Virus record (IMG/VR): IMGVR_UViG_3300030117_001894
Location: 1,915 to 65,914 of that record
Direction: 5' to 3' (one strand)
Source of the DNA: a virus
Lineage: Duplodnaviria > Caudoviricetes
Length of the DNA stretch: 64,000 nucleotides
Shown: positions 44,828-64,000 of the stretch, piece after piece
How the letters are laid out: each line of letters opens with the position of its first letter
How positions within the stretch are numbered: the first letter of the stretch is position 1
Made by a program: the position numbers and the translations under genes
The notes under the pieces: generated by a model
Databases searched by the model: none
Told to the model about the DNA's origin: nothing
The model's input: the letters and a program-made list of their open reading frames with translations, nothing else

Positions 44828-45148
44828 CTATACTTGACGATGATTTAAATCTTCGTCTTTTTTCCATAATCCATTTTCTAATTTACCTGTTCGTTTAGAT
44901 ATCTCTTTGTAAGCCGCTATCATGCACTCCTCGAGCGTTAAACCTTTTTGTTCAGCTAAAACGATCAAACAAACAACACAATCCCCTATCCCGTCTTTTA
45001 ATCCAGGTGCATCATCGTAGGCGAGGGCTCGAGCTGTCTCACCGACTTCTTCTACAAGTTTCAACATTTGTTTTTCAGGTTGTATATCGGGACCATAAAG
45101 TAGACCACGTACTTCCGCCCAATCAACGATATCATCAATTACTTTCAT
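44828..45148 (-). CDS. MazG-like nucleotide pyrophosphohydrolase
   Basis: WAEVRGL, KLVEEVGE, DGIGD and AYKEISKRTG; likely start MKVIDD. Confidence 0.8.
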   Translation of the reverse strand: MKVIDDIVDWAEVRGLLYGPDIQPEKQMLKLVEEVGETARALAYDDAPGLKDGIGDCVVCLIVLAEQKGLTLEECMIAAYKEISKRTGKLENGLWKKDEDLNHRQV

Positions 45149-45353
45149 CTCTCTCCTTTTTAGTTTCCATACACCAATGCCAAGCATCATTTTCCATATA
45201 CATAAATGCTCGACATTCTTCCAACCTTTTTTCCCATTCATTTAAGTTATCTTTCTCATTTAGATTTGTATCTGTAATTGTTGTTGAGCAACCAATCAAA
45301 CCAACTGCTACCAGAATTAACCATATAAATTTGTCCTTAAATATTTCAATCAT
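45135..45353 (-). CDS. Small lipoprotein
   Basis: Lipobox LIGC; paired Cys. Confidence 0.55.
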   Translation of the reverse strand: MIEIFKDKFIWLILVAVGLIGCSTTITDTNLNEKDNLNEWEKRLEECRAFMYMENDAWHWCMETKKERDESN

Positions 45354-46211: not shown

Positions 46212-46456
46212 AAGTCCTCCTTATAATCGAAACCTTCCAACATAGCATCCACTATTTTGTCATAATCGATAACGTCATCGGCTTCTAATGTATCAAATAA
46301 TAATCCAATAGAACGTTGTAGTCTATTACGATCCATACGTGCTAAATATTCTTCAGACGTTTGATCAGCAATATAAGGTTCTAAAGCTATGGCGATCGTC
46401 GCAACAGCTCGTTCTACAGGATTTAAATCAAACTTTCGTTTAGCTTTTCGTGGCAT
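46208..46456 (-). CDS. Hypothetical protein
   Basis: Coupled ORF. Confidence 0.55.
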   Translation of the reverse strand: MPRKAKRKFDLNPVERAVATIAIALEPYIADQTSEEYLARMDRNRLQRSIGLLFDTLEADDVIDYDKIVDAMLEGFDYKEDL

Positions 46457-46694
46457 CTTCGTTTTCTTTCTTCAAACGATTAATCATCGTATTGAAAATA
46501 TCGTTAACAACAACAGGTTCTTCTGTTTTGACCACGTTGGCTTCAACTTCTAGCTTTTTAAGGCGTTGAATTAACATTTTATTCACATCGAGTTGATTAT
46601 TCATAAACTCTTGTGTTGAGCGTTGCGTTTTTACTAATAAATCGAGACTTTGTGTAATTGTATCGATCATTTGCATCATTTCATTCTTTTCCAT
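46440..46694 (-). CDS. Hypothetical coiled-coil protein
   Basis: AGAAAGGAG SD. Confidence 0.6.
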   Translation of the reverse strand: MEKNEMMQMIDTITQSLDLLVKTQRSTQEFMNNQLDVNKMLIQRLKKLEVEANVVKTEEPVVVNDIFNTMINRLKKENEDATKS

Positions 46695-46718
46695 CTATTT
46701 CTCCTTTCTTATTAATAA

Positions 46719-47125
46719 ACTGTAAAAAGTGTGGCTTATCAGTCTCGGTATGCAAGTGTTTTAACTGACTAACTTAGCTTCTCCCTTATTCAACCCCGAA
46801 TTTAATCTAGGTATTGGCTGATCAAACCAACCTTTGAAAAGTACCACGTTGAAGGTCTAGTAGTTTTGAGTCACTTCTCGGGATAACCTTCTCGCACCCG
46901 ATGGCTGACTGTAAAAAAGTGTGGTGACGAGAGGATCTCGGTTTCCGCATATACCTCCGTTCATCCTAACCGACTCGAAAGTACAGGCTTTTACAAGGAT
47001 CGGGACATCACCACGGTTTTGTGCCAGAGAGTCAAGCGGTCTAACTAAAAAACCCCGCTTGGTATCATTATTTAATGGAGTAGTCATATGAAACTCTCTG
47101 GGCTTATCAAACTTGTTCTAATAAA
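46719..47125 (-). ncRNA. Putative structured non-coding RNA array (four folded units, two paralogous)
   Basis: Directly downstream of the promoter at 47135-47168; no SD-led ORF; multiple stems; duplicated CCACACTTTTT(T)ACAGT tails. Confidence 0.6.
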
Positions 47126-47134
47126 CATAACTAT

Positions 47135-47168
47135 ATTATAAAGTACCAAAATTAGCAAAGTAAAGCAC
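47135..47168 (-). promoter_or_regulatory. Early promoter copy
   Basis: GTGCTTTACTTT...TATAAT. Confidence 0.8.
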
Positions 47169-47333
47169 TATTTCACCTCTTTGATTCGTGCCATTGCTTT
47201 AGTTCTCCGATATATCGCACGACCACATTTTGGATCTAAAAAGATTGTAGGTGATAGAGTACCAAACCTATCTTTAGTTTGTACGTGTCGAGTTTCTCGC
47301 CAATCGACATCACCTTTTTCTAACACTTTGCGT
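47168..47333 (-). CDS. Small basic protein (likely start MNLKKAKLLRK; start coordinate approximate)
   Basis: 3' part of ORF 47168..47512; the N-terminal extension overlaps a lipoprotein gene. Confidence 0.4.
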
Positions 47334-47339
47334 AATAAC

Positions 47340-47552
47340 TTAGCTTTCTTTAAGTTCATAATCCCGCTCCATACATTTTGACCATTCGTCACGTTTAACT
47401 TCTTCAGGATAGGCTGTATACAACTTATCCCGACATTCTTCAAACTGTTTACGCCAAACCGCAGGGTCGTATTTATCGTTCCATTCTTTAGTTTCTGGAA
47501 CGTATGTTGCACATCCTGTAATTATAAACGCTGTTAATAATCGATAAATCAT
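47340..47552 (-). CDS. Small lipoprotein
   Basis: Lipobox ITGC; W...EEC...W.KCME resembles 45135..45353. Confidence 0.6.
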   Translation of the reverse strand: MIYRLLTAFIITGCATYVPETKEWNDKYDPAVWRKQFEECRDKLYTAYPEEVKRDEWSKCMERDYELKES

Positions 47553-47866
47553 AATTCGTCTGACATTATATTGTCAGGTAAATCTACATGTGGTAGCTTG
47601 TTATAATCTTCGTATTCCATATCTAAAAAGAACCTTTCATTCTGTTCTGGATTAGGTCCTGGAATTACAAACATAGCTCTAACTTCTATATCGTTATGGT
47701 CGAGCGTGTAAGTAATTGGTAATTTGACTTTTTCTAAATCGTAGCCTAAGTCTAATAAAACTTCGTTAATCATCCCCACATCAGGATATCTGTTTTTGTT
47801 GGAGTCTTCGGCTTTTTGTGTAAGATTTTCTAATATCTCAATGGTTGCATATTTAACTTGTGCCAT
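47549..47866 (-). CDS. Hypothetical protein
   Basis: GAGG SD. Confidence 0.6.
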   Translation of the reverse strand: MAQVKYATIEILENLTQKAEDSNKNRYPDVGMINEVLLDLGYDLEKVKLPITYTLDHNDIEVRAMFVIPGPNPEQNERFFLDMEYEDYNKLPHVDLPDNIMSDEL

Positions 47867-59913: not shown

Positions 59914-61433
59914 AATAAGTTATCGTTAAATTCTGGTAAATCGTGTGGCTCATCTTGAGCTTTAAATTCTTCTATATACCAAACGTTTACTCCTCGTCCT
60001 TTTATGTTAAAAAAGTGTGGCTCTCCATGTAGTTGTTTTAGTTTAGATGTTAATTTATTTCTTTGATAGTCTTTAAAGTTATGTCTATGTAAATATTCCA
60101 TTAAATCACCAAGTCTAAAATAGGTTTTACCATTATCTGTCCATGGTTTATGCAATAAAAGCTCATCACGTTCTCTCGCAGGTCGTTCTGTACAAAAATT
60201 TTCTAATAACTCTAAAAAATGCCCTTCTGTGGAGCTTTCTTTAGGAACTTCGACCACGGTTAACGCATCTAGGAGCTGCTGGATGATTTGTCTCCAGACG
60301 TTTTCCTTAACTTTCTGAGGTATCTTATTTAAAGAATCCATACACTTTCTTTGAAATCTGTTTTGATTTAGTAAGTCATCTGTCTCTAATTCTAGTCTGC
60401 CACCTTCCACATCTAAGAACCAAATCGGTGGATCACTATCTTGTTTAGTTAAATTACTAAATAAAGGTGTGCCACCATTAGCACCAATTCCATATTTACG
60501 TGTTCGGCATAGCGGACTATTACAATGACTAGCTATCGGCTGATCATTACATTTATAAAAGTAATCTTTTCGTTGTACTTGCTTACCCACGGTCAAAACT
60601 TCTTGTGCTCCTAACGGTGGTTGCATATATTTTATATTTACATCTTCTAACCTTTTTTCCCAATCATCTGGATATTTCTTTCTAAGGAACACTCCTACAT
60701 TAAACAATCCTGAATTACGTGTACCTTTAGGAAACCCCTGTACAATTAAATGCTGTATACACGGAGGTGACTGATCTAGCCAATCAATAGCTTCGTTTAA
60801 TGGACTAGCTTCCAATTTTTCTAACTCATCTGGAGTTAAAGCTAATTCAGATGCGAAATTAAGGAATTCTTCTGGACTTAATGCTCCACCATCTCTACCG
60901 TAGGCATAACGTGTTGAGTTCTCTCCTCCGAAGTAGGGCATATTTAAAGTACTACCTCTATCACCGCGTTCTAATAATAGTTGTGTTTGTTTAGGAAATA
61001 TTTCTGCTTGACCGTAGCCGATTGCCGCGGCTAGTTGTCTAAGCTTTCGTTGTAGCATCGAAGCCGCAACAGGTTCTTGTAGGAAGATATAGATATGTGC
61101 TCCTCCGCTTTTACTTCGACAAAGTATTAGAGGTAATTCTTGTTTAGCTAGTTTCTTAGCGAGATCTTTTAAATCAAGTTGATACTCATCAACATCGATC
61201 GCTCCCCAGACACAGCTGTTGTTTTCATCTATCGCTACAATACCTACGCTTTGATGACCTGACAAGTGGTCATCCCACAGCTTCAGAAGATCTTTATCAG
61301 ATAACTCCTTAGATATGGTGATGTTTTTACCACTTGCCTTGCCATCCTCTCGAGTTTCATCACTTGCGGTAAATGTACCGTAAGCTTTCCGCAATCCAGC
61401 ATAGCGTGTAGCAAATTTCTCTGCCAACGACAT
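59910..61433 (-). CDS. Archaeo-eukaryotic primase-like protein
   Basis: GAIDVD, RSKSGGAH, EIFPKQ and PPC...GTRN (PriCT-like). Confidence 0.8.
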   Translation of the reverse strand: MSLAEKFATRYAGLRKAYGTFTASDETREDGKASGKNITISKELSDKDLLKLWDDHLSGHQSVGIVAIDENNSCVWGAIDVDEYQLDLKDLAKKLAKQELPLILCRSKSGGAHIYIFLQEPVAASMLQRKLRQLAAAIGYGQAEIFPKQTQLLLERGDRGSTLNMPYFGGENSTRYAYGRDGGALSPEEFLNFASELALTPDELEKLEASPLNEAIDWLDQSPPCIQHLIVQGFPKGTRNSGLFNVGVFLRKKYPDDWEKRLEDVNIKYMQPPLGAQEVLTVGKQVQRKDYFYKCNDQPIASHCNSPLCRTRKYGIGANGGTPLFSNLTKQDSDPPIWFLDVEGGRLELETDDLLNQNRFQRKCMDSLNKIPQKVKENVWRQIIQQLLDALTVVEVPKESSTEGHFLELLENFCTERPARERDELLLHKPWTDNGKTYFRLGDLMEYLHRHNFKDYQRNKLTSKLKQLHGEPHFFNIKGRGVNVWYIEEFKAQDEPHDLPEFNDNLL

Positions 61434-63161: not shown

Positions 63162-63192
63162 AATATCTAGCAATTACGACAAAGTAAAGCTA
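63162..63192 (-). promoter_or_regulatory. Early promoter copy driving the replication operon
   Basis: AGCTTTACTTT upstream element. Confidence 0.6.
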
Positions 63193-63412
63193 TTAGTTAT
63201 ATAGTAGTTTTAAGAATAAAAAAGTTTATAGGAAAAATTTTTCAAAAACTACTAATATCGGTAATAATCTAATAGATTTTTAAGCAAAGCCAGTGTTTAA
63301 GAGCATCACAGTCTATTAGATTGTACGATTCAATCTATTAGAAACTACTAATTCTATTAGAGGGCATGAGAAAACTATTTATTTTGGGGCTTTTTATAAG
63401 TAAATTGTAATA
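63190..63412. repeat. Right copy of the inverted repeat; origin-like AT-rich region at the strand switch
   Basis: Reverse complement of 38953-39190; multiple CTATTAG/CTAATAG. Confidence 0.85.
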
Positions 63413-63441: not shown

Positions 63442-64000
63442 ATGCAATACAAGTTTAAAACCAAGCCTTATGAGCATCAGCTTGAGGCGTTAAAAAGATC
63501 ATGGAATAAGAGAGAATACGCTTATTTTATGGAAATGGGTACAGGTAAATCTAAAGTACTTATAGATAATATCGCACTTCTATATGATAAAGGTGGGATA
63601 AACGCGGCTATCATCGTAGCACCCAAAGGGGTCTATCGGAACTGGTCTGAAAAAGAAATACCTGCTCATATGCCTGACCACGTAGAACGAGACGTAGCAG
63701 TATGGAACCCTGCACCTACGGTAAAACAAAAAACAGAACTAATGAAGTTGTTCGAAGTGTCGCCTGAACTTAAAATATTGGTTGTTAATGTAGAAGCTTT
63801 TAGTACGAAGAAAGGTGTAGCTTTTGTTGAAAGGTTTATATTAGCTCACAACACACTGATCGCGGTCGATGAATCTACGACTATTAAGAATCCTAAAGCA
63901 CAAAGAACTAAGAACTTATTAAAGTTAGCTCTTAATACAAAGTATCGTAGAATCCTTACAGGTTTTCCCGTAACGCAATCACCGTTAGATTTATATAGTC
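63442..64000 (+). CDS. SNF2-family helicase (partial, runs off window end)
   Basis: MQYKFKTKPYEHQ...FMEMGTGKS...VDEST...LTGFP. Confidence 0.9.
   Translation, partial: MQYKFKTKPYEHQLEALKRSWNKREYAYFMEMGTGKSKVLIDNIALLYDKGGINAAIIVAPKGVYRNWSEKEIPAHMPDHVERDVAVWNPAPTVKQKTELMKLFEVSPELKILVVNVEAFSTKKGVAFVERFILAHNTLIAVDESTTIKNPKAQRTKNLLKLALNTKYRRILTGFPVTQSPLDLYS

What the first reader, a model, noticed from the sequence alone, without database searches (positions are those of the whole stretch)
46719..47125. Promoter-driven array of structured non-coding RNAs containing two paralogous units
Seen (minus strand): ~430 nt with no SD-led ORF directly after a consensus early promoter. Unit A (47023-47102) is closed by CCAGAGAGU/ACUCUCUGG with an inner CAAGCGG/CCGCUUG. 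Unit B (46921-47014) and unit D (46731-46847) both start CGUGGU, both contain UGC..ACCGAGA in a 3' hairpin loop, and both end CCACACUUUUU(U)ACAGU, with multibranched stems between. Inference: a polycistronic precursor processed into discrete small RNAs (decoys, anti-defence RNAs or host-targeting sRNAs). I do not recognise it as a known family.
Basis: partly seen in the sequence, partly recalled or inferred. Interest (0 to 1): 0.8.

Follow-up and report, generated by a model that had tools for sequence, protein, structure and literature searches.

The report
Shuffled structured-RNA cassettes in phage leader
A marine phage carries, between a promoter and the next gene, a non-coding string of separately folding RNA modules that related ocean phages mix and match like cassettes, and none of the modules belongs to a catalogued RNA family.

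Summary
Window 46695-47167 (minus strand) is a 473-nt non-coding gap behind a sigma70-type promoter, one of seven of a single family in this 65.9-kb HTVC023P-like marine phage. It contains four modules:
- A: hairpin with a conserved 15-nt loop.
- B: 94-nt three-way junction.
- D: shares B's ends, one hairpin and a loop motif.

Among 35 complete homologous arrays from viromes and metagenomes there are 23 architectures, built from A plus at least 13 cassette types. More distant relatives have the same promoter directly followed by the ribosome-binding site, so the array is an insertion into a 5' UTR.

Compensatory base changes support A, B, C and a further cassette, E. The 76-aa ORF's ATG survives in only 13 of 35 arrays. 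C, E and B-like units also occur in T7-like and other marine phages. Rfam 15, ARAGORN and GenBank phages give nothing. Metatranscriptome contigs cover the array.

Function was not shown. My leading reading is a co-transcribed set of autonomous RNA domains released as stable accessory RNAs. The main rival is cis protection or processing of the mRNA. B/D paralogy is only partial: the covariance model for B does not detect D.

The parts
47135..47169 (-). Sigma70-type promoter: conserved AGTGC, then -35 TTTACT (47164-47159), an 18-nt spacer and -10 TATAAT (47140-47135).
   Evidence: 10 of 12 positions matched. Member of a 7-copy promoter family. Conserved in all related arrays.
47103..47119 (-). 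Invariant 17-nt leader AGAACAAGUUUGAUAAG. The transcription start is inferred a few bases upstream, near 47128.
   Evidence: Invariant in 26 of 26 distinct unit-A alignment rows. The start position is an inference from the -10 element, not measured.
47024..47102 (-). Unit A, the constant first module. Outer stem CCAGAGAG/CUCUCUGG, a variable insert hairpin, and an inner hairpin with the conserved 15-nt loop GGUUUUUUAGUUAGA.
   Evidence: 14 consensus pairs, 3 with compensatory changes. L125 has the same loop on a different stem.
47015..47023 (-). Single-stranded linker CACAAAACC between unit A and the first cassette.
   Evidence: CACAAAA is conserved in 26 of 26 rows, with one variable position.
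46921..47014 (-). Unit B, a 94-nt three-way junction: P1 of 9 bp, a P2-P3 arm with a U(G/A)U(A/G)AA bulge, and a P4 hairpin with a 19-nt loop.
   Evidence: 98.4% of cells paired, 5 pairs with compensatory changes. Model R1 gives 115.5 bits. In the wider set 14 of 26 pairs show compensatory changes. GC is 0.51 against about 0.36 locally.
46908..46920 (-). Junction ACUUUUUUACAGU. Its last two bases are already the first bases of unit C.
46850..46909 (-). Unit C, a 60-nt hairpin-type pseudoknot: P1 GUCA/UGAC, P2 UCGGG/CCCGA, and loop GAAGGU pairing with downstream ACCUUC.
   Evidence: 8 variants, 100% of cells paired, 2 compensatory pairs, pseudoknot helix invariant. Found in 21 further viral contigs. 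Occurs once in the window.
46731..46847 (-). Unit D, 117 nt, closed by GUGGU/GCCAC. It holds a hairpin also found in B variants and a 3' hairpin whose loop carries UGC..ACCGAGA.
   Evidence: Found in 4 of 35 arrays. The fold is not better than shuffles (z -0.43). The three D sequence variants seen by eye in the arrays show no informative variation.
46719..46730 (-). Junction ACUUUUUACAGU, the second copy of the shared tail.
46695..46718 (-). Constant 3' part UUAUUAAUAAGAAAGGAGAAAUAG, containing the ribosome-binding site of the 84-aa ORF.
46440..46694 (-). First gene downstream (84 aa, no family). It heads a run of six small unassigned ORFs followed by MazG (44828-45241).
47168..47359 (-). Upstream 63-aa gene, used as the flank anchor for finding relatives.

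Best explanation
Descriptive part (about 0.9 likely). The gap is a transcribed, non-coding mosaic array of independently folding RNA modules. It was inserted between a host-type promoter and the ribosome-binding site of a small-gene operon in a subclade of HTVC023P-like marine podophages. Unit A is constant. The cassettes behind it (B, C and D here) are drawn from a pool of at least 13 types. Recombination at the short conserved single-stranded junctions (CACAAAAC / CCACAC-Un-ACAGU) exchanges them between phages, including unrelated lineages.

Mechanistic part (inferred; the confidence value of 0.42 refers to this part). The promoter transcribes the array together with the operon. The modules closed by their own P1 helix (A, B, D; E and F in relatives) behave as autonomous domains. 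I propose they are cut out at the A/U-rich linkers by a host endonuclease of the RNase E type. They would then persist as stable RNAs that bind a host or phage partner, that is, dispensable and strain-variable accessory RNAs such as decoys or sponges. The open pseudoknot C may additionally shield the downstream message.

Shown here: non-coding status, promoter, module boundaries, conserved folds, shuffling, and presence in RNA libraries. Inferred only: cleavage, stability, action in trans, and any partner.
For: Modularity.
- 80 loci gave 38 unique arrays, 35 of them complete, with 23 architectures.
- Array-less relatives L034, L035, L037 and L040 have the promoter directly followed by the ribosome-binding site.
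- D is 99.4% identical to L025/L009 over 156 nt. The promoter plus A segment of the same contig is 90.5% identical, and the neighbouring protein is 83% identical.

Structure.
- Compensatory pairs: B has 5 of 26, and 14 of 26 in the wider set. A has 3 of 14. C has 2 of 15. E has 4 of 14.
- Slid-partner controls pair in only 28-61% of cells, against 92-100% for the real structures.
- G-U pairs fit the gene strand only.

Not coding. The ATG is kept in 13 of 35 arrays.

Autonomy.
- C occurs in 21 further viral contigs and E in 14, in other gene contexts: upstream of a T7-like primase, at the 3' end of a unit before a promoter, and upstream of MazG.
- Loops are nearly invariant while stems covary.
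- Every one of the 35 arrays keeps at least one P1-closed unit among B, D, E or F.

RNA evidence. Contigs from 4 metatranscriptome runs (3 studies) cover 46842-47113 but not 47182-47400, and they show the same mosaic junctions.

Against pure cis shielding. PMC9943677 (abstract, introduction and the pseudoknot section read) reports that RNase E readily bypasses stem-loops orthogonal to its path. It is hindered by coaxial H-type pseudoknots. This argues that P1-closed A, B and D are not there merely as scanning obstacles.
Against: - No RNA ends, no cleavage and no partner were observed. The RNA runs are assembled contigs, may contain DNA, and were found with this very stretch.
- Flanking genes may be missing from those contigs simply because they are more divergent than the cassettes at the 88% likeness cut-off.
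- No cassette has its own promoter or terminator. All copies lie on the sense strand inside operons, mostly a few to 30 nt upstream of a ribosome-binding site, which fits a cis role equally well.
- D has no energetic or covariation support (D variants compared by eye).
- Covariation rests on few independent lineages: 14, 11, 8, 13 and 26 rows. Alignment A5 was fitted to the model.
- No complementarity target or host is known.
Confidence: 0.42

Rival explanations
1. Cis-acting mRNA armour or processing modules. The cassettes stay in the 5' UTR (or in intercistronic or 3' positions in other phages). There they protect neighbouring coding RNA from 5'-end-dependent RNase E scanning or from exonucleases, or they mark processing sites. 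This would be analogous to T7 RNase III sites or bacterial REP/BIME elements. Number and identity vary because the modules are redundant.
For: - The cassettes are always on the sense strand, between a 5' end or upstream cistron and a ribosome-binding site.
- The other six promoters of this phage also have short 5' UTRs. I judged by eye that four of the sequences printed could form a small hairpin; none was folded.
- Unit C and several cassettes in relatives (h, I, J) look like open H-type or loop-tail pseudoknots, read by eye from the sequences. This is the topology shown to hinder RNase E scanning in PMC9943677.
- The array is dispensable in relatives.
- Array fragments are seen in RNA libraries.
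Against: - A, B, D, E and F are closed by a P1 helix, so their ends are adjacent. By the same paper such orthogonal structures are readily bypassed.
- A generic obstacle would not need at least 13 elaborate folds with nearly invariant loops.
- About 25 nt of unpaired leader precede the first stem, which is poor for a 5'-terminal stabiliser.
Confidence: 0.25
2. Regulatory aptamers or operators. One or more modules bind a small molecule or a phage or host protein and so tune transcription or translation of the downstream operon.
For: - The architectures are aptamer-like: three-way junction B, and the P1-enclosed H-type pseudoknot E with invariant loop nucleotides.
- They lie directly upstream of ribosome-binding sites.
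- A glutamine riboswitch in a related virome contig (L094:7538-7592) shows that marine phages do carry riboswitches.
Against: - The downstream genes are not coherent: unassigned small ORFs, MazG, primase/helicase.
- Nearly identical phages carry different cassette sets, or a single cassette, in front of the same gene.
- No expression platform or alternative pairing was seen.
- E also sits at the 3' end of a unit, before a promoter.
Confidence: 0.1
3. Attenuator or terminator modules. Each P1 helix followed by a U run ends a fraction of transcripts. This would give a nested set of short RNAs and dose the operon, perhaps with unit A acting as a put-like antiterminator.
For: - P1 is followed by AC plus U5-6 in B, D and many E copies.
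- Unit A is constant and promoter-proximal.
- E lies at the end of a unit before a promoter in L100 and L102.
Against: - The terminator scan finds none in 46300-47600, while the phage's own terminators are plain GC-rich hairpins with U runs, for example at 48455-48425.
- The terminal junction has a run of 4 or more U in only 11 of 35 arrays.
- In T7-like phages E sits about 8 nt before the primase ribosome-binding site with no promoter between them.
Confidence: 0.07
4. Selfish or neutral recombination modules. The cassettes spread among co-infecting phages through microhomology at their junctions and have no function for the phage. Alternatively, they act as DNA.
For: - Turnover is rapid, with conserved junctions of 10-17 nt.
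- The cassettes are more conserved than their flanks.
Against: - Compensatory changes and strand-specific G-U pairs indicate selection on an RNA fold.
- Loops are invariant across phage lineages.
- No mobility gene was seen among the 10 flanking ORFs scanned, 8 downstream and 2 upstream.
- Cumulative GC skew shows no turn at the site.
Confidence: 0.08
5. New self-cleaving ribozyme classes that cut the polycistronic RNA at the unit borders.
For: - The modules are compact pseudoknotted folds with invariant nucleotides, arrayed in phage intergenic regions with conserved borders.
- From memory, not from any call: known small ribozymes cluster in phage intergenic regions.
Against: - No hit to any Rfam ribozyme model, even at E up to 5-10.
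- By my own reading, the pairing order of E and B does not fit the HDV-like, twister, pistol or hammerhead topologies.
- No cleavage data exist.
Confidence: 0.05

Closest known systems
Modular structured-RNA arrays in flavivirus 3' UTRs (xrRNA, dumbbell and stem-loop elements). Recalled from general knowledge, apart from one search listing.
   Same: Both are strings of separately folding junction or pseudoknot modules in an untranslated region, duplicated and rearranged between related viruses.
   Different: Here the virus is a DNA phage, the array lies in a 5' UTR behind a bacterial promoter, the modules are unrelated in sequence, and exonuclease resistance was not tested.
T7 and SP82 intercistronic RNase III processing sites (recalled).
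   Same: Both are structured elements in phage intergenic regions on the sense strand. In T7-like marine phages C, B-like and E units sit just upstream of the primase/helicase gene.
   Different: RNase III sites are long irregular duplex hairpins. These modules are three-way junctions and pseudoknots with P1 helices of 4-10 bp and conserved loops.
Bacterial interspersed mosaic elements (BIME/REP) and BOX elements (recalled).
   Same: Both are mosaic combinations of short structured motifs in transcribed intergenic DNA, with variable number and order.
   Different: Those elements are dispersed in many copies per genome and are simple palindromes. Here there is one locus per phage genome and the folds are complex and covarying.
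Phage tRNA gene clusters with co-transcribed small stable RNAs (T4 species 1 and 2; recalled).
   Same: Both are promoter-driven strings of structured RNAs with P1-like closing stems, variable between related phages.
   Different: ARAGORN finds no tRNA and there is no cloverleaf or T-loop.
Type III antitoxin (ToxI-like) arrays and their phage mimics (recalled).
   Same: Both are arrays of small pseudoknotted RNAs cut from one transcript, with a counter-defence role known in phages.
   Different: Those are tandem near-identical repeats of 34-45 nt next to a toxin gene. Here the units are unlike each other, no tandem repeat is found, and none of the 10 flanking ORFs scanned matched a toxin family.
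Candidate structured RNAs catalogued from IMG/VR (PMC10690425).
   Same: That catalogue draws on the same data source and lists thousands of unnamed phage RNA motifs, some upstream of genes (passages read).
   Different: I could not check whether these cassettes are among them, because the supplementary tables are closed. The passages I read contain no occurrence of 'tandem' and describe no cassette arrays.

Membership tests
Any Rfam 15 family (4227 models) | The covariance-model score reaches the family's gathering threshold. | tested here: not met
   No hit in the window. The best weak hits are noise: preQ1-II at 18.6 bits against a threshold of 47. Of 21 related loci, only a glutamine riboswitch elsewhere in L094 reached threshold. 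E-value scans of two full arrays gave only noise.
tRNA / tmRNA | Cloverleaf recognised by ARAGORN. | tested here: not met
   0 genes in the 64 kb.
Intrinsic terminator | GC-rich hairpin with a short loop, directly followed by a U tract. | tested here: not met
   No terminator-like site in 46300-47600. A run of 4 or more U at the terminal junction occurs in 11 of 35 arrays.
Protein-coding gene (76-aa ORF 46857-47087) | Start codon and reading frame conserved in homologues. | tested here: not met
   The ATG is kept in 13 of 35 arrays. The longest ATG ORF anywhere in an array ranges from 2 to 106 aa, depending on cassette content. Indels occur in the corresponding part of unit A.
Type III antitoxin (ToxI-like) array | Tandem near-identical repeats of about 34-45 nt. 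| tested here: not met
   Tandem Repeats Finder finds only a weak 18-nt, 2.1-copy repeat at 46670-46707, outside the units. The repeats found are the two tails only.
Type III antitoxin (ToxI-like) array | Adjacent endoribonuclease toxin gene. | tested here: not met
   10 flanking ORFs were scanned. The only named match is MazG, plus one weak PHROG match of unknown function.
CRISPR array / solitary-repeat RNA anti-CRISPR | 28-37-nt repeats matching a host CRISPR repeat. | not testable with these tools
   No repeat-spacer pattern was found. The host and its repeats are unknown.
Riboswitch | Conserved aptamer tied to functionally coherent downstream genes, with an expression platform. | tested here: inconclusive
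   Aptamer-like conservation is present. Gene association is not coherent and cassette content varies in front of the same gene. No ligand test is possible with these tools.
RNase III processing site (T7 type) | Roughly two turns of irregular duplex in a single hairpin. | tested here: not met
   The consensus folds are a three-way junction and pseudoknots, with a P1 of 9 bp or less.
REP/BIME-type mosaic repeats | Many dispersed copies per genome. | tested here: not met
   B and C each occur once in the window. The tail motif is confined to this gap, apart from one 11-mer at 60010.
Obstacle to RNase E scanning (5' UTR pseudoknot) | Base pairing coaxial with the 5'-to-3' path (H-type topology). 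| tested here: inconclusive
   C has this topology, though its pseudoknot helix is invariant and so has no covariation. A, B and D are P1-closed, that is orthogonal to the path. Definition taken from PMC9943677. Function is not testable here.
Known self-cleaving ribozymes (hammerhead, twister, pistol, hatchet, HDV-like) | Match to the class model or conserved core. | tested here: not met
   No Rfam hit at permissive E-values.

The most novel reading that the evidence does not exclude
Marine phages maintain an exchangeable repertoire of non-coding RNA cassettes. On this reading it is an RNA counterpart of protein anti-defence or accessory gene islands. The cassettes are expressed from one promoter as an array. 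Each encodes a distinct compact fold (three-way junction, H-type pseudoknot and others) that neutralises or hijacks a different host factor. Cassettes move between unrelated phage lineages that share hosts. Units B, C and E would then be the founding members of several new functional RNA classes.
Probability: 0.3. Interest if true: 0.9.

Novelty: new variant of a known kind. Interest (0 to 1): 0.72.

Why it matters
Phage accessory functions are almost always sought among proteins. Here a promoter-driven, rapidly reshuffled locus is made entirely of structured RNA. At least three of its modules (B, C, E) are conserved with covariation across different marine phage lineages, yet they are absent from Rfam 15, from deposited phage genomes and, for the E core, from representative bacterial genomes.

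If the modules act in trans, this opens a class of RNA-based host manipulation in some of the most abundant ocean viruses. If they act in cis, it is a natural test bed for how pseudoknots and junctions control mRNA life in bacteria. Either way the work yields several new RNA families, each with defined borders and all but D with a consensus fold, ready for probing.

Tried and rejected
- Coding gene. Rejected; the start codon is not conserved.
- Known RNA families, tRNA, tandem repeats, terminators. Searched and not found.
- Similar DNA in GenBank phages. No match for the window gap or for two relatives' arrays.
- Bacterial genomes. The E-core pattern gave one hit in a Desulfobacula MAG. It lacks the flanking consensus, so I treated it as chance. 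B, C and D were not scanned there because the cap is one scan.
- B-core pattern in viral contigs. It found only the same clade because the pattern was too strict. Divergent B-like units surfaced later through the C scan and the covariance model.
- 3' junction pattern. One new hit (L106) lay inside a polymerase-like ORF and was a chance match. L060, from the leader pattern, was also a chance match.
- D as a member of the B family by covariance model. Not detected.
- Pairing between the unit-A loop and the leader, unit C or the ribosome-binding region. Inspection by eye found only about 5 bp, so I dropped it.
- Resemblance of an E segment to a recalled CsrA-binding consensus. Not conserved in the T7-like copies; dropped.
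- HDV-like, twister and pistol topologies for E and B. The helix order does not fit (my reading only).
- Literature. Four full-text searches found no description of such arrays. PMC10690425 (passages) and bioRxiv 10.64898/2026.10.21.760802 (passages; 'phage' occurs 0 times) do not describe them. Supplementary tables could not be opened.
- RNA runs. Parts of the stretch without contig cover carry no weight, and the habitats of small-share runs are not interpreted.

Full report
**Setting**

The window is bases 1915-65914 of a 65,914-base virus record rated 100% complete. Nearly all large ORFs lie on the minus strand and GC is 0.34-0.41. PHROG matches identify terminase, portal, DNA polymerase, helicase and primase. 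The portal is 51-54% identical to Pelagibacter phages HTVC027P and HTVC023P and to other marine podophages. The host is not established.

**The observation**

The minus strand between 47167 and 46695 is a 473-nt gap. It lies between a 63-aa ORF and an 84-aa ORF that has a strong AAAGGAG ribosome-binding site.

The promoter.
- Directly after the upstream stop codon lies TTTACT-18-TATAAT, matching 10 of 12 positions.
- Its extended -35 region, AGTGCTTTACTTTG, recurs on the minus strand at 63190, 51644, 50581, 48920, 44810 and 38348, each followed by a -10 element.
- The 11-mer gives 10 matches at up to 1 mismatch against 2.16 expected, and 0 of 100 shuffles reach 10.
- The other six promoters have 5' UTRs of a few tens of nt, several with what look by eye like small hairpins. 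Only this one is followed by about 430 nt of non-coding RNA.

- Unit A's nested stems fold as described, with z -3.73.
- B and D both start CGUGGU, both carry UGC..ACCGAGA, and both end CCACAC-U6 or U5-ACAGU.
- CCACACTTTTT occurs 3 times against 0.11 expected.
- B folds better than its shuffles (z -2.90). D does not (z -0.43), nor does the whole region clearly (z -1.39).

**Relatives and modularity**

Sources of homologous loci:
- the two flanking proteins (17 and 24 viral loci);
- the invariant leader in viral contigs (18 stretches);
- the leader in metagenome contigs (30 stretches).

Together these gave 80 loci, 38 unique arrays and 35 complete ones, measuring 195-737 nt from leader to ATG.

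All arrays share the promoter, a 17-nt invariant leader, unit A, the linker CACAAAA(C) and the 3' end (A)CAGUUUAUUAAUAAGAAAGGAG. Between these lie cassettes in 23 different architectures. Examples are A-E, A-B, A-D, A-F, A-C-B, A-B-I, A-B-J, A-B-H, A-G-C-B-H and A-C-B-J-D-I-K. The window's A-B-C-D is unique in the set.

Cassette frequency among the 35 arrays:

| Cassette | Arrays |
|---|---|
| B | 22 |
| C | 11 |
| E | 11 |
| I | 8 |
| J | 5 |
| D, F, H, K, h | 4 each |
| G, M | 2 each |
| N | 1 |

Every array keeps at least one of the units closed by GUGGUG...CCAC (B, D, E or F).

More distant relatives (upstream protein 63-67% identical: L034, L035, L037, L040) have the same promoter followed directly by the ribosome-binding site and a homologue of the 84-aa gene. 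The array is therefore an insertion into a 5' UTR in one subclade.

Cassettes can be far better conserved than their surroundings. D is 99.4% identical over 156 nt to L025/L009. The promoter plus A segment of that contig is 90.5% identical, and the neighbouring protein is 83% identical.

**Not coding**

The ATG of the 76-aa ORF is retained in only 13 of 35 arrays. Elsewhere it reads CATAAG, CATAAT or CATATA, or is deleted in the 75-nt form of unit A. The longest ATG ORF anywhere in an array ranges from 2 to 106 aa according to which cassettes are present. The unit-A segment that the ORF would cross has indels.

**Folds**

Unit B (14 distinct sequences):
- It is a three-way junction with a P1 of 9 bp, a P2-P3 arm carrying a conserved 6-nt bulge, and a P4 hairpin with a conserved loop.
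- 98.4% of cells pair and 5 of 26 pairs show compensatory changes. Slid controls pair in 31-56% of cells.
- The P3 hairpin is replaced wholesale between variants.
- Several pairs are G-U on this strand and would be C-A on the other, so the folded strand is the gene strand.

A covariance model of B (R1):
- It finds B at this locus in all B-bearing contigs (32 hits).
- It gives weaker matches in other phages: L115 (E 0.0004), L117, L122, L118 and L036 (E 0.08-0.23).
- On that wider set of 11 rows, 14 of 26 pairs show compensatory changes and 91.6% of cells pair. That alignment was fitted to the model, which favours the structure.
- It does not find D.

D shares with B its ends, the loop motif and a 20-nt hairpin segment that also occurs in the B variants of L050 and L087. 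This is sub-module sharing rather than overall homology.

Unit A (26 distinct sequences) has an outer stem and an inner hairpin with a conserved 15-nt loop. Three of 14 pairs are compensatory. L125, a more distant relative, has a similar loop on a completely different stem.

Unit C (46909-46850) is a hairpin whose loop (GAAGGU) can pair with ACCUUC downstream. Eight variants pair in 100% of cells, with two compensatory pairs in P1 and P2. The pseudoknot helix never varies, so it is neither supported nor contradicted.

Cassette E is absent from the window. It is a P1 helix enclosing an H-type pseudoknot. Four of 14 pairs are compensatory and 98.9% of cells pair.

**Spread beyond this locus**

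- The C core occurs in 26 viral stretches, 21 of them contigs not found with the leader, in 20 distinct contexts.
- The E core occurs in 18 stretches, 14 of them new contigs.

The contexts include:
- the gap just upstream of a T7-type primase/helicase, whose nearest cultured relatives are Pelagibacter phages HTVC103P, 104P and 115P at 48% identity;
- arrays behind another sigma70-like promoter in a third phage group (L093, L119, L124);
- the gap upstream of a MazG-like gene (L095; the same array precedes a different gene in L096);
- the 3' end of a unit just before a promoter (L100, L102).

In all of them the elements lie on the sense strand. None is in Rfam 15 or in 50,697 deposited phage records. 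The E core gave only one chance hit in the representative bacterial genomes.

**Expression**

Six RNA runs hold small parts of the 1-kb stretch. I laid four of them, from three studies. Their contigs (62-270 nt) cover 46842-47113, that is units A, B and C. They also cover short stretches on the downstream side (around 46400-46460 and 46600-46740), but nothing between 47182 and 47400. They reproduce mosaic junctions known from relatives: C followed by B, A followed by C, B followed by J or H.

This is weak evidence. Contigs show presence only, DNA carry-over is possible, and the cassettes are more conserved than their flanks.

**Mechanism**

The data establish a transcribed, non-coding, recombining array of structured RNA modules. 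How it works is inference.

The terminator reading is weak:
- no terminator-like site in the gap;
- plain hairpin terminators elsewhere in the phage;
- a run of 4 or more U at the last junction in only 11 of 35 arrays;
- E about 8 nt upstream of an essential gene's ribosome-binding site.

A cis-protective role has a published rationale. RNase E scans from the 5' end and is hindered by H-type pseudoknots coaxial with its path, but it readily bypasses orthogonal stem-loops (PMC9943677: abstract, introduction and pseudoknot section read). This fits C. It does not fit A, B and D, whose P1 helices bring their ends together.

Four features are what one expects of autonomous functional RNAs:
- P1-closed design;
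- invariant loops on covarying stems;
- occurrence in unrelated gene contexts;
- strain-level turnover.

I therefore rank them as accessory RNAs released from the precursor (0.42) ahead of cis armour or processing (0.25). Regulatory aptamers, selfish modules, attenuators and new ribozymes follow.

**Limits**

- Covariation rests on few independent lineages.
- D has no structural support beyond its closing stem.
- Collections were scanned by exact patterns, not by models, so the counts of other contexts are lower bounds.
- Supplementary tables of the IMG/VR structured-RNA catalogue (PMC10690425), which might already list some of these units, could not be opened.

Noticed in passing
window 38318-63190, minus strand (sites at 63190, 51644, 50581, 48920, 47166, 44810, 38348): Seven promoters of one family, (A/T)AGTGCTTTACTTT(G/C) plus a -10 element. 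All lie upstream of the replication and small-gene modules, and none of this type was seen in the structural-gene half.
   Followed up: partly
window 63250-63370, minus strand: Four copies of a TCTAATAGA-type 9-mer, one of them inverted. They lie in the gap between the divergent plus-strand ORF (63442-63999) and the first promoter at 63190. This looks like an operator cluster.
   Followed up: no
window 48455-48425, 40745-40724, 39240-39210, 37958-37939, 37137-37116 (minus strand): Canonical GC-rich hairpin plus U-run terminators of the phage. The first lies one transcription unit upstream of the array.
   Followed up: no
window 44828-45241, minus strand: A MazG-like pyrophosphatase is the seventh gene downstream of the array. 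In L095 an E-containing array sits directly upstream of a MazG-like gene.
   Followed up: partly
L094:7538-7592 (+): A glutamine riboswitch (RF01739, 52.3 bits) in a virome contig that also carries an E/F-like unit.
   Followed up: no
L092, L097, L098, L110, L111, L117, L118, L122, L127: In T7-like marine phage contigs, the gap between an acidic-tailed protein gene and the primase/helicase gene holds E alone, or C plus a B-like or G unit, ending a few nt before the ribosome-binding site.
   Followed up: partly
L093, L108, L109, L116, L119, L121, L124, L126: A third phage group has long arrays of five or more different small pseudoknot or junction units, including C, E and B-like ones. In L093 a sigma70-like promoter stands at the head of the array. 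The arrays lie upstream of a conserved gene of unknown function.
   Followed up: no
L095 and L096, about 230 nt upstream of the E unit: A long conserved non-coding unit that begins GCGAGGUAAUC and precedes E, H and I cassettes. It is not behind a promoter but follows a gene. The same unit also occurs in L120.
   Followed up: no
L036:3577-3662: A divergent B-like three-way junction in the 3' untranslated gap of an array-less relative, just upstream of a promoter of the same family.
   Followed up: partly
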